From positions 18,974,001 through 19,038,000 of the forward strand of contig CM097885.1 of NCBI GenBank assembly GCA_044892525.1: a stretch of DNA of 64,000 bases. Direction: 5' to 3'. Each line of letters begins with the position of its first letter. Positions within the stretch are counted from its first letter, which is position 1. Below the pieces are notes generated by a model that was not told the origin of the DNA, made no database searches, and was given only the letters and a program-made list of their open reading frames with translations. Shown one piece after another: positions 11,290 to 54,287 of the stretch. Source of the stretch: Schmidtea polychroa (taxonomy: Eukaryota). A program made the position numbers and the translations under genes.

Positions 11290-11900
11290 TTTAAGTGAAT
11301 TGAATTTTGACCCATTAGTGGTTGCCCCTTGAATTTGTGCGACATACCCACATTTCAAAGAAAAAATAGTGAGTTAAATCTGACTATCAGTGTCCTAACT
11401 TATAGAAAAAGAGCCGTTAAACCTATTGAAAATGAATATAGTAATTATATTTCGAATCACCCTCAATTAGATATTATTCACCGATCTAAGGTTAATGACG
11501 GTGAACCCTTATATTTACTTTTATTAGAAAACGGTGCTAATTTTCATTACACCGCAGTTTTTGATTTACAAAAACTTATGAATTCATGTCAACTGGTGTC
11601 CCCATTATCTTAACGGCTTTAGACATAAAAGTGCATTTGATAATCATGTCGCCTTATGCACCAAAAACCAGATAGGAACAACACTATATTCCCTACCTAA
11701 AAATAAATTTCAAATTCCAAAATTATGCAAAACCGTATCACCGCCATTTGTGATATATGCGGACTCTGAGGCAATATTGGCAAGCGATATCACCCTGTTA
11801 TCTGTGTAAAGAATTCATACTTGATAGAGTTAGGGATCATTGTCTATTCTCAGGTAAGTATCTCGGTGCTGCTTATAGGAACTGTAATGTTTCTAGACGA
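11290..11900 (+). pseudogene. Polinton/Maverick-type PolB N-terminal fragment with exonuclease motif and endonuclease-VII-like zinc motif
   Basis: LNFD..P....DIPTFQRKN, LLLL....HY, PFVIYADSEAIL (ExoI-like), then CYLCKEFILDRVRDHCLFSGKYLGAAYRNCN; internal deletions and frameshifts. Confidence 0.75.
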
Positions 11901-16965: not shown

Positions 16966-17684
16966 TTTAGTTTTTATCGGCCAATTATAATTAAACTTTA
17001 ATAAATTCAAATAAATGTTGAAAACACACAAAAAAATATCAGTTTTTAAATCATTTAACTTCCTCACAAACACATTTTAAACAAAATCTCAAATAAACAA
17101 ATTAAGTCCAAAAAACCCAATTCCAAATCAACTTACACACTAACCAATCCAATTTGATTATTCCAATAACTAGACGAACAACAAAACAAACACTCCGAAC
17201 TCAAAATTAAAAAATACACACCCATAAAGATACAGACAGAAAATCCGATTGAACGCATACCATAAGAAGAAATGTTCCAATTTATTTCACAATAGAGTAT
17301 CGATCAATATTTTGTTTTAAATTTAACATGAACTTCTTTTACTGTTGTTTCGACCAGTCAGAGAGGAGACTGACTTCTCATCTGACTGGCTGTATAAATT
17401 TGGCCTCGCATTTGTGTGCGATTGTGGTGGTTATTGTGTCAGCATACATACGCGGGGAATGGTGGTTTGTGAGGGGTATTTTTGTCGTTTTTATCGCGTC
17501 TGTGTGCGCGTTATTATTAAGATTGTTATACCGTGTTAGGGTGCGCACATAGACGCGGACAATATTCTATGTTCGGATAAAAAAAATGAATTTGTGTTTT
17601 GTAAAATTTATTTTTCTGCTGGAATTTTACTTCAAATATTGGAACTTTCCAGAAATTGTTTTAAATGTTTTTGTTTAAAAAGGT

Positions 17685-18230
17685 ATGATTTGCCTCTTTT
17701 TTGTGAATATGAAAGAAAATAAAGTTTTCAATCCTGATAAAATATTGATGGCCAAGGAATACTTTAAATCAAATCCACGGGAAGCGTGGAATGTTTTATT
17801 TAGCGATGCACAAATTCGCCAGTTTCCCTTAATCAGTCAATATCTTGAAACCATTGAAAATGTTGAACTATTAAAAGAATATGTACTGCGAACTTATCAC
17901 ATCGAATTATGGAAACTCTATTTGTCTCACCTAAAAGATAAAAAAACACAAAACTCCTAGTTTCAAAGAAAGAATGGCTCAAGCTTATGATTATGCAGTA
18001 GATAAAATGGGTTTGGATTTTCTCATCTGGTCAGATTATATGAATTTCTTAAAATCAACTCAAGTCAAAAGTCAATATGCTGAAAGTCAAAAGACAATTG
18101 CTGCACGTCGAATTTATCATTGGACTATTGTTACTTCCATGGTTGGTATTGAAACAGTTGAGAGAGATTGCAATGCTTTCAAAACTTCTATCAATAGCGT
18201 TATCGCTAAGAGAATTATCGAAGAATTTGA
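17685..18230 (+). pseudogene. CSTF3: Intronless, truncated copy of CstF-77 / suppressor of forked N-terminal HAT domain
   Basis: AWNVLFSDAQ, HIELWKLYL, PSFKERMAQAYDYAVDKMG, IWSDYMNFLK, YAESQ...RRIY, INSVIAKRIIEE follow the CSTF3 N-terminus in order; frameshift near the A-run at ~17941-17955, internal deletions, C-terminal truncation. Confidence 0.85.
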
Positions 18231-19784
18231 AGTCGGGATTTCAAAAGATAGTCAAACTCGAGAACATGTTTTATTGACTTATAAAGTTGGAGTCATGATT
18301 ATTGATCAAAATAAAAACTAGCTTGATATAATTCATTTTGACTTAATAAAACTGTTAAGACAAATTTTGTCTTTTAATTTTACGTTTTTTAGAGAATGAA
18401 AAAAAATTGAAAATATTGGATGAATTGAAAAGACAAATTGGATTTTACTAATTATTACTTAAGTAGTTCATAAATGATTCAACCACTTCATGATACTTTC
18501 GTATTTATCAATTTTTTGTTTGTATTTATAGTATATAATATTTATTATTATTATGTTTTAATGCTCTAAAATTATTTTACTTTCATGAAGTTTCAAAATT
18601 GAATTTTAAAATTCCAAAAAAGAAATTAATCAAATCAACAACAAAAAACAAAAATGACATTCTGAGAAAAATTACCTGTTTTCAATTAATTTAAAAATAA
18701 CTATTTAAAATAAAATGAAAAGTTAGAATAATACAAAAATAAAATTGTAAAAACAAGAGAAATAATGTGGATAAAACTAAAATAATTGAAAATTTAATAA
18801 AATAGCAGTAAAAAAGGATTTATTGAAACTAGGCATTGTAATTGAAATTTCCCATATAATGCTGAAATGAAAAAATACTAATGTGAGATAAACATATTTT
18901 TAAAACAAAATTAAATTATAATATTTGCATTCCTATCAAATATATTAATATAATTTAAATTAAATTAATATTAAAATAAAAAAAATAATTTATTACAAAA
19001 TATAATAAAATAAATTTAACTAATTATAAATTAGCTTATAAATAAATCTACAAAAATATTTTTTTAGAAAGAAAACCATTTCTGTTGACAAATTACAAAT
19101 TTGTCAGCTTTATTTGGATTTTGAAAATAAAAATCCCATTCAATTTAATAACAAAATTCTTGTTATAAAGATAAACTCACACCAATCATAACTTGAACAG
19201 TTGTTTCTGATTTTCTTTTTTTCCATATTCTTTTCCTATCAAAATAAAATCGAGTCAAAGAAGTTGAAAACAGCTGCGACTTTATTTCTATTGAAAATGA
19301 TAACTACTGAAAATATTTGTCGAACCATTTTTATTTCAATTAATTTACTATTATTACTGACTGTCAGCAAAACATGATTTGATTGTTTAGGTTCACAGTC
19401 AGAAAAATAGAATGATAATATTTTAGGAAAGTAATTAATGAAATTTATTCTTATGAATATAAATAGAAAGGAGACATTTTATAATTAATTTATAATAATA
19501 ATTTAGAATTTTGGGAAATATTAAACATTTGTTTTATTTATTGATTTAAATAAAAAAATAAAATAGTTTCTTTTTAAATAAATAAATGTAACAAGTGATA
19601 AAAGCAAAGTCTATGTCGAGTATAATAAACAATTTTTGATTTTTTGTCAAAATGAAAATAATTGAACTATCATCAAAAAACAAATGTAATCAAAAAATAA
19701 GAGATTATATATATATAGTATTTATCAAAAAGCTTGACTACAATGTCAATTGAATATAAATCAGTGGTGAAATTTGAAAAAAAA

Positions 19785-20415: not shown

Positions 20416-20475
20416 GTTTTTTCTCTCTTTTCTCTTTGTTCGATTGGGATTTAAGTCTAACCATGTATAGGCAGA

Positions 20476-21075
20476 ATTTAATTCTCTACAACATGGCTCA
20501 ATTACAATTTTAGTTTGGTGTTTAGTGTGTAATACACACATGTTTTTACGATAAATTTGTATTTTTCGCGCGGTTAACGTAATTTTCTTGGATTTTTATA
20601 TATATATTATATAGATAAAATTTAATTTTCTATAAAATGGCTCAATTACAATTTTAGTTTGTCGCTTTGTGTGTAATACACACATGTTTTTACGATAAAT
20701 TTGTATTTTTCATATAGTTAACGTAATTTTCTTAGGATTTTATTCATATAATATATAGATAAAATTTAATTTTCTATAAAATGGATTGATTAGAAATTAT
20801 GTATCTTGTTCTGTGTGTAATACACACATGTTTTATGATAAATTTGTATTTATTATACGTTAACGTAATTTCCTTGGATATTTATTCATATATTATATAG
20901 ATAAAATTTAATTTTCTATAAAATAGCTTGATTAAAAATTATGTCTCGTATGTTGTGTGTAATACACACATGTTTTTACGATAAATTTGTATTTATTATA
21001 CGTTAACGTAATTTCCTTGTATATTTATTCATTTATTATAGAGATAAAATTTAATTTTCTATAAAATGGATTGAT
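20476..21075. repeat. Tandem repeat, ~143-145-bp unit, ~4 copies
   Basis: Core GTGTGTAATACACACATGTTTTTACGATAAATTTGTATTT recurs at ~20525, 20669, 20813 and 20955. Confidence 0.9.
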
Positions 21076-21087
21076 CTAGAGTTTAAA

Positions 21088-21440
21088 ATGTTGTATTATT
21101 TTATTACTTTGTTGCAATATTTTTATAATCTTATAACAATTTGCTTAAATATTTTACATCTGGTGAAATATTTCCGAAATATGTTATTACTTTGTTGTAA
21201 TTTACTGAAAGACTTCACAATTTATTACAATATTCTTTTTAATTTGTTGTCCGTCTTCGAAATAATGTATTGATTTGTCCCAATTAACATCATTATTTTA
21301 TTACTTTGTTGCAATATTTTTATTATTTTAGTTACAATTTGATAAATATTTTACAACTTTGTTGAAATTTTCTGAAATATGTTACTACTTTGTTGTAATA
21401 TTTTCTAATCTTGTTACAATTTGCTTAAATTTTTTACAAC
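21088..21440. repeat. Degenerate tandem repeat (TTATTACTTTGTTGCAATATTT core)
   Basis: Core recurs at ~21100, 21184, 21298 and 21382. Confidence 0.7.
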
Positions 21441-28945: not shown

Positions 28946-29312
28946 TATATCCGACAGAAAAATGTTACACCATTACTTTATAAGTTAAAAATGCTAAAAG
29001 TAATCGGATGCACTTGTAAACAGTTTCTGTGTATCGACTACTTTTTTAGTCCGCAGAGGTGAATTATGATTTTTCATACGCCATGTTTACAAGTTTACAG
29101 ATTTTTCTGTGACCAAACTAATTTACAAGTGATGCGATTTCCAGTATACCGGGGAAAGCATACAATAGAGTTGAATCAGCAATATTGTATACTTACCTGG
29201 CGCGATGAGAAATCTTCGCGTCTCCTGCATAGTACTGATGAGAGCCAAAAGCTCGAAACTAGTCTACTATTGGGATTTGCACTGGGTATCACAAAACTAG
29301 TACTGTTTATTT
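28946..29312 (+). mobile_element. Retrozyme-like ~370-bp non-coding repeat, copy 1
   Basis: Collinear with 53530-53920 (minus strand); contains a hammerhead and the ATACTTACCTGG motif. Confidence 0.8.
29226..29281 (+). ncRNA. Type I hammerhead ribozyme with minimal palindromic stem III
   Basis: ATAGTA-CTGATGA-GAGC(CAAAA)GCTC-GAAA-CTAG-TC^TACTAT: intact core, stem II, stem I; GUC cleavage predicted after 29264. Confidence 0.9.
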
Positions 29313-30403
29313 TAAAAATATATTGATTGTATTAACAATGTAAAATTACATTATGTATTTGTATATATTTCAGTTAAAAAATTATTTATTTTAAAAAGTT
29401 TTTAAAACACATTTAAAACGTATCCTTCCGAATGACGTTTTTGAATTTCTATTGATATTGTTAACTGTATAACATTATTCCAATCTTAACATTATTTCCA
29501 ATACTTGTGTCGATGTTATTATGACTTATCATGACTTAACATTTCAAACCTGCCAATATAGTCTCAATATCTAATTTATTTATATAATTAAAATCAGAAG
29601 CAGCAGTACACAGGTTTCTTCACTCGTATCTACAAACAATGAAAAATCTAAACTTGCTTAAAATACAAAGAATATTTTTAAAATGATGCATAACTATGAA
29701 AACCCTTAAAATCGACGAAACATAAAATTTCGAGACGGACGTAAACAATTCTTATTTCTAAATCATATAGCCAAATTAAAGAGAATATTTTTTTAAGATT
29801 CAAGATTAATTTCCAATCAATAAAAAGTGTATACGACTTGCCCGGTTTGCACTAAAATACAGTACTAGGCATTAAATAGATCATTAAAATTCTTAAGGAC
29901 AACCTCAAATATTTCCAATGCATTTTAAAGGGATTTTATAATAACATTGTCCATGTGTTTAACTATAATCAAATTCCAAACGACAATATTTTGTCCCTTC
30001 CATTTTTAATTTGTATAATTCTCATTTTCTATCGGATATTGCATTAAATATAGCGCCAAAAATATTGCTATAGTTTCACTCATCTAAATAAAAATTAATA
30101 TATATTCTTTTATCTTCTTGCTGAATTTAATTTCAAAAATTGATTTTTGTTATTTTTTTCATTTAATTAAATTCTAAAAAGTTTCACAAATATTAAATTA
30201 TTATAATTTCAGAGGTACTTTACAAGGAGAATTATTTATTTTATTGATTATTTCTAATTGTTTTTAATGTATAAACAAATTAAACAAACAAATTTATGAT
30301 TTTTAGTTTATTAGAGATAACGATTAAACTATTGGAAAATGTAGTAAACAAAATATGAAATTATTATTTTAAATTATATGTCGACATTTTCTTTAATAAT
30401 TTC

Positions 30404-53529: not shown

Positions 53530-53920
53530 TTAAGATAAACATTACAAGCTTTGTGATACCCAGTGCAAATCTCAATGGTAGATTAGTTTCGAGCTTTTGG
53601 CTCTCATCAGTACTTTGCAGGAGACGCGAAGATTTCTCTTCGCGCCAGGTAAGTATACAATATTGCTGATTCAACTCTATTGCATACTTTACCTACACTG
53701 GAAATCACATCACTTTCAAATTCGCTAAATCACAGAAAAAAAATATCTGCAAACTTGTAAACATGGCGTATGAAAAATCATATTCGCCTCTGGAGACACC
53801 GTCATACACAAAAACTGTTTACAAGTGCATCCGTAAACCTTTAGAATTTTTAACTTGTAATGGATTAAAATATTTTTTTACGGATGTCTAACAATAAAAT
53901 AAGATAAACATTACAAGCTT
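53530..53920 (-). mobile_element. Retrozyme-like repeat copy 2 (monomer plus end of the preceding tandem unit)
   Basis: AAGCTTGTAATGTTTATCTTA occurs twice ~370 bp apart on the minus strand; collinear with copy 1. Confidence 0.85.
53564..53619 (-). ncRNA. Type I hammerhead ribozyme, variant
   Basis: GTA-CTGATGA-GAGC(CAAAA)GCTC-GAAA-CTAA-TC^TAC; a G>A change breaks the stem III palindrome. Confidence 0.75.
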
Positions 53921-53934
53921 TACAAGAAATTACA

Positions 53935-54079
53935 AGAAATCTTCGCGTCTCCTGCAAAGTACTGATGAGAGCCAAAAACTCGAAACTAGTCTACTATTGG
54001 GATTTACACTGGGTATCACAAAGACTGTAATGTTTATCTTATTTTATTGTTAGACATCCGTAAAAAATATTTTAATCCA
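53935..54079 (+). mobile_element. Inverted partial copy 3 of the retrozyme-like repeat
   Basis: Runs from AGAAATCTTCGCG through the hammerhead to TTTTAATCCA; inverted relative to the adjacent copy 2. Confidence 0.85.
53953..54007 (+). ncRNA. Type I hammerhead ribozyme
   Basis: AGTA-CTGATGA-GAG(CCAAAAA)CTC-GAAA-CTAG-TC^TACT; cleavage predicted after 53991. Confidence 0.85.
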
Positions 54080-54287
54080 ATAAAAATATTTGTAAGGAGA
54101 AGATTTATAAATTTATTTAATTATTAATTATATTTAATTTATATATTTACAATTATCAATGTATAAAAGTACGATGAATTTATTAATAATTAATAAAATT
54201 ATGACACATTGTGCTAAATTAAAGAGGTTTGAATTAAGTTTATTATATTATATGTTACATTCTATTTTAAGAATATAACAATTTTAA

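What the first reader, a model, noticed from the sequence alone, without database searches (positions are those of the whole stretch)
29189..29224. U1 snRNA 5' end (ATACTTACCTGG) and a GAAA-capped hairpin directly upstream of the hammerhead
Seen: ATACTTACCTGGCGCG is identical in copy 1 (29189) and copy 2 (53656-53641, -) although upstream sequence has diverged. It runs into the hairpin GGCGCGAAGA-GAAA-TCTTCGCGTC and then the ribozyme. Established: AUACUUACCUG is the conserved U1 5' end that pairs with 5' splice sites, and snRNA genes use upstream promoters. Inference: the repeat may have captured a U1 promoter and start site, giving a ~76-nt RNA (29189-29264) with a U1-like 5' end and a ribozyme-made 3' end that could bind splice donors. 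I see no U1 stem-loops or Sm site. Alternative: it is a perfect splice donor (CAG|GTAAGTAT) on the antisense strand.
Basis: partly seen in the sequence, partly recalled or inferred. Interest (0 to 1): 0.85.

Follow-up and report, generated by a model that had tools for sequence, protein, structure and literature searches.

The report
U1 fragment inside a ribozyme retroelement
A small, abundant jumping repeat that carries a self-cutting RNA has picked up the first 16 letters of the host's U1 splicing RNA and kept them in a related organism too, but it folds them away inside a hairpin and shows no good sign of having taken U1's promoter.

Summary
The motif is real and is U1-derived: 29189-29204 equals nucleotides 1-16 of this genome's own U1 gene (16/16; 0 of 20,000 shuffles exceeded 12). 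It sits inside a 378-bp non-coding tandem monomer with a type I hammerhead (a non-LTR retrozyme with Penelope-type insertion ends, about 1,500-2,300 motif matches). The promoter reading is not supported: host snRNA promoters share a motif at -67 to -76 that the element matches only weakly, and copies do not start at U1 +1. In the monomer fold the U1 stretch is the 3' arm of a hairpin whose 5' arm lies upstream of +1, and that hairpin covaries in a second organism, so the selected RNA reads through the supposed start. What stays odd: in that organism close likeness begins at U1 +3, and its small hairpin keeps six letters of U1 helix H. Best reading: RNA-level capture of a U1 piece, now a masked structural part of the retrozyme RNA. 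No RNA end data were available. New variant of a known kind; interest 0.5.

The parts
28949..29314 (+). Copy 1 of the retrozyme family: 5'-truncated, 240 bases upstream of the U1 stretch plus 126 from it; one hammerhead only
   Evidence: BLAST of the 378-bp monomer against the window: 92% and 96%
29189..29204 (+). U1 snRNA nucleotides 1-16 (splice-site-pairing arm plus 5' strand of helix H)
   Evidence: 16/16 to host U1 in L001/L003; best of 20,000 shuffles 12; helix H = nt 12-15 (PMC13500670)
29149..29167 (+). Upstream arm (-40 to -22) that pairs with -6 to +12; donor-like with GT in one subfamily, GG in copy 1
   Evidence: Pairing probability 0.8-1.0 at 15 of 16 U1 positions in most of 15 monomers folded as circles; GT present in 14 of 50 copies
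29168..29188 (+). Loop and upper 3' strand of the same hairpin, directly upstream of U1 +1
   Evidence: Folds; organism B has 14 of 28 letters alike here but a 7-bp stem in the same place (table 7, compared by eye)
29199..29222 (+). GAAA-capped hairpin that pairs U1 nt 11/13-20, standing where helix H stands in U1
   Evidence: Fold; organism B variant of the 3' arm (tables 3 and 7)
29223..29275 (+). Type I hammerhead: extended helix I, core at 29235-29241, helix II, 2-bp palindromic helix III, cut after 29264
   Evidence: Sequence; Rfam Hammerhead_HH9 E 0.0013, 23.9 bits, below the gathering score of 52
29272..29314 (+). 3' arm (pairs with about -57 to -42) and AT-rich end where most copies stop; likely reverse-transcription start region
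   Evidence: 52 of 88 copies end at monomer 120-130, 22 of 88 at 156-173; block shared with organism B ends at about 29292
29123..29130 (+). Weak look-alike of the host snRNA promoter motif at -66; not significant in copy 1
   Evidence: p 0.085-0.12, p 0.34-0.75
53531..53921 (-). Copy 2, other subfamily; helix III has a substitution next to the cut triplet
53935..54082 (+). Inverted 5'-truncated piece (monomer 20-165) capping copy 2, the Penelope-type inverted arrangement
   Evidence: arrangement described in PMC8557442

Best explanation
The stretch is a piece of U1 snRNA captured once, at the RNA level, by the ancestor of a Penelope-mobilised hammerhead retrozyme. Either the reverse transcriptase jumped onto U1 snRNA and copied it to its capped end, or a founder copy landed in a U1 gene and was transcribed from it; both leave a border at exactly U1 +1 and carry no promoter (inferred). 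Today the element is copied from RNA that runs through the motif: multimers or hammerhead-made 378-nt monomers, probably circles (read-through template shown by copy structure; cutting and circles inferred from other retrozymes). In that RNA the U1 letters are paired on both sides, to an upstream arm and to the GAAA hairpin, forming two arms of a four-way junction at the base of hammerhead helix I (predicted). They are kept as part of the structured domain that the ribozyme or the partner reverse transcriptase needs, and masking keeps a splice-site-complementary strand from being exposed in an abundant RNA (inferred).
For: 16/16 identity to host U1 from +1, chance about 6e-8 per monomer, best shuffle 12 of 20,000. 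All 30 unselected 14-mer loci were this family; 1,518 exact 14-mers and 2,309 matches to a 21-mer of the 3' arm, controls 0. Tandem arrays with 378-bp period. 59 of 88 copies anchored on the 3' arm run at least 10 bases upstream of +1; 1 of 79 5' ends lies within 3 bases of +1; 13-15 of 83 distinct filtered sites start at -1 to +3 against about 10.6 expected, P 0.12-0.27. Monomer fold z = -9.1 linear, -11.3 and -5.1 as circles. Between -130 and +115, 7 of 8 recurrent subfamily changes at paired sites keep the pair, against 112 of 374 rare changes. Organism B keeps a stem across +1 with two double-sided changes in six pairs. Template-switch capture of U1/U2 pieces is the proposed origin of SINEU heads (PMC4494074).
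Against: It does not fully explain why close likeness to organism B starts at U1 +3 while the adjoining part of the same helix has turned over; that hints at a sequence-specific role. Over the whole monomer only 8 of 17 recurrent changes at paired sites keep the subfamily-A pair (the 9 broken ones include 8 distal sites where the subfamilies align poorly). A weak promoter-like site does lie in register at -66. Folding is prediction only; expression, cutting and circles were not shown. No autonomous partner sharing the block was found.
Confidence: 0.55

Rival explanations
1. Built-in splice-site lock. The region from -37 to +44 is the vestige of the Penelope-type 5' UTR intron (81 nt, donor-like start, AG end at the 5' strand of hammerhead helix I). 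U1 was captured while bound to that donor, and the captured arm now pairs with the donor in cis, shutting out the real U1 snRNP so that the unspliced RNA survives as transposition template.
For: Penelope has a 75-bp 5' UTR intron in its terminal repeat (PMC8557442) that ends at the 5' end of hammerhead helix I (PMC4209133); the candidate here has that length and end point. The U1 arm pairs exactly with the donor-like arm. None of 23 internal deletions in 178 loci removes this interval, as expected if it is never spliced. It explains position, orientation and the +1 border in one event.
Against: The donor GT is present in only 14 of 50 copies and absent from the youngest subfamily (median 2.6% divergence against 5.2%), so the lock has nothing to lock in most lineages. 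The donor has an extra A. No spliced form among the joints shown (15 shown, 69 not shown). No coding partner with this repeat was found. Absence of spliced copies also fits 'no intron'.
Confidence: 0.15
2. One reading: the monomer carries an snRNA-type Pol II promoter, transcription starts at the U1 +1 base, and the hammerhead releases a capped 76-nt RNA with a free U1-like arm; read-through into the next unit makes the monomer.
For: Border at U1 +1. With a loose matrix the best site of 200 upstream bases falls in the host register (-69/-72; p 0.009-0.034 for subfamily A and copy 2). In the short RNA nt 1-10 are unpaired ahead of a helix, as in U1. Newt satellite 2 is cited as driven by an snRNA-type promoter (PMC2220036 passage). 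A cut 76-mer would not be retrotransposed, so the lack of copies starting at +1 is not decisive.
Against: Sharper host-only matrix: p 0.04-0.75, best site elsewhere at -29; width 18 not significant; no promoter alignment; conserved hairpin across +1; dimer-dependent hammerhead; in a Penelope-like element uncut RNA was the main template (PMC11167929), which would give a peak at +1 that is not seen; no Sm site to stabilise such an RNA.
Confidence: 0.12
3. Convergence without capture: a strong splice donor was duplicated in inverted form, which yields a U1-like complement automatically; the further matching letters are chance.
For: The two arms form an inverted repeat, and inversions are common in this family. 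Perfect donor-like 12-mers occur elsewhere (1 in this window).
Against: Donor complementarity explains nt 1-11 only; nt 12-16 match U1 at chance 2.4e-4, and nt 17-19 match the array U1 as well; organism B's hairpin arm has the six letters of the helix H 3' strand including two that break Watson-Crick pairing.
Confidence: 0.08
4. The constraint acts on the other strand: a perfect donor in antisense transcripts binds U1 snRNP or is spliced.
For: The reverse strand is a perfect donor by construction; motif kept in organism B.
Against: Individual copies lose the motif at the same rate as flanks (7.1% against 5.8-7.7%), so no host use at most loci; no loose end or joint at the donor position among those shown; no reason why a sense-strand retroelement would select it; nt 12-19 unexplained.
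Confidence: 0.05

Closest known systems
Non-LTR retrozymes of animals (Cervera and de la Pena 2020, PMC7229834; Li, Clavereau and Pollet 2026 preprint 10.64898/2026.07.22.740005)
   Same: Short non-coding tandem monomer, type I hammerhead in each unit, dispersed monomers and arrays, highly paired RNA, likely Penelope-mobilised.
   Different: Carries an internal U1 snRNA piece; neither paper, in the parts read, mentions one.
Penelope-like elements and their terminal repeats (PMC4209133, PMC8557442, PMC11167929)
   Same: Hammerhead with short palindromic helix III, 5' truncation, inverted 5' piece, two preferred 3' ends about 40 nt apart, AT-rich or microsatellite targets.
   Different: No reading frame; no autonomous element sharing this repeat was found.
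SINEU of crocodilians (Kojima 2015, PMC4494074)
   Same: U1-derived sequence in a non-autonomous retroelement, no snRNA promoter carried, template switch proposed; SINEU-3 is an internally deleted snRNA.
   Different: There the snRNA part is a long 5' head of a linear SINE moved by Tx1 elements; here it is 16-19 nt, internal to a tandem hammerhead monomer and paired in cis.
Newt satellite 2 (seen only as cited in PMC2220036 and PMC6155905; Coats 1994 not held)
   Same: Tandem hammerhead repeat linked to snRNA machinery.
   Different: Satellite 2 is reported to use an snRNA-type promoter; here the transcribed U1 letters are present and the promoter is not demonstrable.
U1 snRNA 5' arm and helix H; minimal U1 construct (PMC4383343, PMC13500670)
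   Same: 5' arm followed by a helix through nt 12-15, with the large stem-loops replaced by a short capped stem.
   Different: No Sm site, no stem-loops I-IV, and the 5' arm is paired in cis in the monomer.

Membership tests
Non-LTR retrozyme | Tandem repeat units each with a type I hammerhead | tested here: met
   378-bp arrays; complete core and helices
Non-LTR retrozyme | No protein coded | tested here: met
   No frame of 90 aa over either window copy
Non-LTR retrozyme | Highly self-paired monomer | tested here: met
   z -9.1, -11.3, -5.1
Non-LTR retrozyme | Self-cleavage and accumulation as circular RNA | not testable with these tools
   Only contigs of runs guessed to be RNA; the wrap-around joint is also in the probable DNA run
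Penelope-mobilised element | Fixed 3' ends with optional 30-40 nt tail, variable 5' truncation, inverted 5' pieces, AT-rich targets | tested here: met
   52 and 22 of 88 3' ends in two clusters; 5' ends spread; inversions
Penelope-mobilised element | Terminal repeat shared with an autonomous element | tested here: inconclusive
   tblastn with one local Penelope-like family over 178 loci found neighbours but none continuous with the block; no genome-wide search for a partner was run
U1 snRNA gene | 5' arm complementary to donors | tested here: met
U1 snRNA gene | Stem-loops I-IV and Sm site | tested here: not met
U1 snRNA gene | Host snRNA promoter motif at -67 to -76 | tested here: inconclusive
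   Weak site at -66: significant with one matrix, not with the sharper one; leans to not met
SINEU | snRNA-derived sequence forms the 5' head of full-length copies | tested here: not met
   Internal position; no excess of starts at +1
Satellite 2-type promoter-bearing hammerhead repeat | Start site driven by an internal snRNA-type promoter | not testable with these tools
   No raw reads or cap data

The most novel reading that the evidence does not exclude
The retrozyme carries a stripped-down U1 (5' arm plus helix H, stem-loops I-III skipped during reverse transcription) that is kept for its sequence, as a switchable antisense arm: closed, it locks the element's own donor and so gives a concrete mechanism for the unexplained intron retention of Penelope-like elements; opened, or released as a capped 76-mer, it pairs with host 5' splice sites.
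Probability: 0.2. Interest if true: 0.8.

Novelty: new variant of a known kind. Interest (0 to 1): 0.5.

Why it matters
Retrozymes and snRNA-headed SINEs are both described, but a U1 piece embedded and kept in a hammerhead retrozyme did not turn up in ten literature searches. It is a dated example of a spliceosomal RNA fragment being recruited into a parasitic structured RNA. If the arm proves sequence-specific, it offers a direct test of two open questions: how animal retrozymes are transcribed, and how Penelope-like elements keep introns through an RNA stage. If it is only structural, it is a curiosity.

Tried and rejected
Rfam at gathering scores: 0 matches in the window. RNA evidence: no RNA holder listed on record as RNA; contigs cannot show starts, ends or levels, and no place with many ends was reported, so nothing was drawn from depth. 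Other organisms: a gapped U1-plus-hammerhead pattern gave 37 metagenome and 3 viral stretches; none of the 40 has a credible hammerhead, so the arrangement was not found outside organisms A and B. Organism-B-type copies in the own genome: 14 matches, none belongs to the family. A second family with another upstream in the own genome: L073 looked like one but is a truncated old copy abutting a Penelope-like endonuclease on the other strand; 89 matches without the usual base at -2 gave 4 U1 genes and 85 family copies. Three 5' ends at -4 to -6 seen early suggested a start site; the unbiased sample did not bear it out. A start at +41, 69 bases after the best promoter-like site at -29, was considered: 5' ends are raised at +32 to +44 but not sharp, several are deletions or inversions, and the site is simply the arm that pairs with the U1 stretch; left open, low odds. 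De novo Gibbs search over 120 bases found the host motif in only part of the promoters. Pfam gave nothing for the endonuclease fragment; its label rests on recalled motifs. The alignment had one row on the wrong strand and was not used for counts. Two papers on the newt promoter were not held. Earlier findings: none by place or sequence.

Full report
Observation. The 12-mer is at 29189-29200 (+) and 53645-53656 (-), with one further 1-mismatch match at 11850 and 0.11 expected by chance. The hairpin and hammerhead follow as stated; the cut falls after 29264. Rfam gives Hammerhead_HH9 at E 0.0013, below its gathering score, and nothing at gathering scores in the window. The claim that upstream sequence has diverged is wrong: 26 bases directly upstream are identical and the likeness continues for about 200 bases. 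The quoted hairpin is that of copy 2; copy 1 has one mismatch.

What the repeat is. The genome is an AT-rich animal genome of 781 Mb (my guess of a planarian flatworm is recalled and untested). The 381-base query had 2,032 candidates, 40 scored, with arrays of 378-bp period. A 14-mer of the motif has 1,518 exact matches (which include U1 genes) and a 21-mer of the 3' arm 2,309 matches at up to one mismatch, reversed controls 0. All 30 of the first 30 14-mer loci are this family. For an unbiased sample I took the first 100 listed places of the 3'-arm 21-mer on contig C1 (30 loci, 58 regions; the remaining places lay in these or in loci already held and were not fetched again), which gave 94 anchored copies, 88 after removing 6 duplicates. 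3' ends: 52 of 88 at monomer positions 120-130, 22 at 156-173, 9 run on in tandem, 5 elsewhere; many end in TA or TAA repeats. 5' ends are spread over the whole monomer, and inverted 5' pieces are common, as on copy 2. This is the insertion pattern described for Penelope-like elements (PMC8557442, passages; PMC11167929, parts 1-2 of 4) and the organisation of non-LTR retrozymes (PMC7229834, passages and Discussion; preprint 10.64898/2026.07.22.740005, parts 1-3 of 5). Helix III is 2 bp with a palindromic loop, the type said to need a dimer (PMC4209133, passages).

The stretch is U1-derived. The genome has several U1 types (42 scored matches; 11 printed). The monomer equals the L001/L003 type at 16 of the first 16 bases and the array type L011 at 18 of 19; the best of 20,000 shuffles reached 12. 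Bases 12-16, which donor complementarity cannot explain, match at chance 2.4e-4. Helix H is nt 12-15 with 119-122 in human U1 (PMC13500670, passages).

Promoter test. Of 13 non-redundant host promoters (U1, U2, U4, U5, U6), 10 have an ATG(C/T)A core at -67 to -76. A position-restricted matrix from 12 promoters put the element's best site in register at widths 10 and 14 (p 0.009-0.034 for subfamily A and copy 2; 0.085-0.12 for copy 1) and not at width 18 (p 0.12-0.41). The sharper matrix anchored on that core gave p 0.04-0.75 over four sequences and four widths, with the best site at -29 or -198 instead. Local and in-register comparisons with 12 promoters were at background, 1 of 24 local scores at p<0.05. 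So a degenerate site at -66 exists but does not carry the claim.

Start-site test from copies. 59 of 88 copies run at least 10 bases upstream of +1; 1 of 79 mapped 5' ends lies within 3 bases of +1, 7 at 70-79. Of all 89 genome matches lacking the usual base at -2 (83 distinct), I read 13 clear and 2 doubtful copies as starting at -1 to +3, against 10.6 expected on my assumptions of 1,450 motif-bearing copies and 2.3 effective positions (P 0.27 and 0.12). Templates therefore read through the motif. This does not exclude a start at +1 whose 76-nt product is cut off and never copied.

Structure. The cut-to-cut monomer folds at z = -9.1; as circles -11.3 (subfamily A) and -5.1 (one older subfamily B copy). 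In 15 distinct monomers the U1 positions are paired at probability 0.8-1.0 apart from nt 7 and single mutated sites: nt 1-12 with -28 to -40, nt 13-16 with the GAAA hairpin. Both hairpins and the stem closing the rest of the circle sit flush at the base of helix I. Between -130 and +115, 7 of 8 recurrent changes at paired sites keep the pair, against 112 of 374 rare ones; over the whole monomer it is 8 of 17. Among genomic copies the 16-mer is no better kept than its flanks (7.1% differences against 5.8-7.7%; 31 of 59 exact), as expected for neutrally decaying insertions.

A second organism. Of 16 listed runs I laid 4. Run X6, labelled organism B, holds a related family: listed pieces start at U1 -3 to +6, mostly +3, and stop near monomer position 104; 13 contigs have loose sequence before +3 (agreement 0.66). 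By eye that sequence matches 14 of 28 upstream positions yet forms a 7-bp stem in the same place, with two double-sided and one single-sided change in six pairs. No other letter is listed at U1 3-12 (40 rows shown, 2 not shown). In the GAAA hairpin's 3' arm organism B has three changes at 94-99% of depth, which give the same six letters as the 3' strand of helix H in host U1 of the L001 type; four of them are forced by pairing, two are not. This is one run, of uncertain kind, with a few low-depth pieces nearly identical to organism A, and no such copy exists in the own genome. It shows both that the hairpin across +1 is under selection and that the best-kept block begins at the U1 border.

Mechanism. 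Shown: U1 origin, border at +1, internal position, read-through templates, family structure. Predicted: masking in the monomer. Inferred: capture at RNA level, by template switch as proposed for SINEU (PMC4494074, part 1 of 5 and passages) or by a founder transcribed from a U1 gene; present role structural (0.55). A lock on a Penelope-type intron is attractive: an 81-nt interval from a donor-like site at -37 to an AG at +44 ends at helix I, as the 75-bp Penelope intron does, and none of 23 deletions in 178 loci removes it; but only 14 of 50 copies have the GT and the youngest subfamily lacks it (0.15). The promoter model has a precedent in newt satellite 2, which I saw only as cited (PMC2220036, passages; the paper itself was not held) (0.12).

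Novelty. Ten searches of the paper library (listings and abstracts, plus the readings named here and passages of PMC6155905, PMC2837043 and PMC4383343) showed no hammerhead retrozyme with a U1 piece. The library lacks most subscription journals; I opened no supplements, and the family lists in the supplements of PMC7229834 and of the preprint may contain this repeat.

Noticed in passing
L003, L005, L010, L046, L058, L060, L063, L065, L279: upstream 64-82 bases: Host U1, U2, U4, U5 and U6 promoters share an octamer-like ATG(C/T)AAA core at -67 to -76 instead of a recognisable classical proximal element (label 'octamer' recalled); U6 also has a TATA-like run near -28.
   Followed up: partly
L004, L008 and L005, L010 (G000 C1 78.84 and 80.76 Mb; C2): Full-length U1 variants with changed splice-site-pairing arms (positions 2 and 9, or 2 and 6) score as high as the standard type; some lie in inverted pairs beside standard U1 and U5 genes. 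They might read non-standard donors.
   Followed up: no
G000:C4:74.005-74.060 Mb: Tandem U1 array, mostly 1,771-bp period, 31 scored matches, whose promoter lacks the shared core; U2, U4 and U6 also lie in arrays.
   Followed up: no
L101, L105, L111: An abundant Penelope-like family (3,127 candidates) with its own hammerhead ends in nearly the same short T/A-rich motif before TAA repeats as the retrozyme does; a candidate mobiliser.
   Followed up: partly
monomer positions 72-73 (window 29260-29261): 5' ends of copies cluster at the centre of the helix III palindrome, 3-4 bases upstream of the cut site (5 of 94 anchored copies, plus 2 more one unit upstream), not at the cut itself.
   Followed up: no
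window 11850-11861: A near-perfect donor-like 12-mer on the + strand unrelated to the repeat; may be a real splice donor.
   Followed up: no
window 17679-18321 (+); similar frame in L128: Two short frames resembling the polyadenylation factor CstF-77 (label recalled, not searched), apparently a decayed multi-copy fragment.
   Followed up: no
window 20429-21119: Five tandem copies of a 142-144-bp unit.
   Followed up: no
L131-L138 (G000 C1 3.88-4.04 Mb): A duplicated cluster of RING-finger, TRAF-like genes (label recalled), each unit carrying a retrozyme copy about 450 bases from the gene.
   Followed up: no
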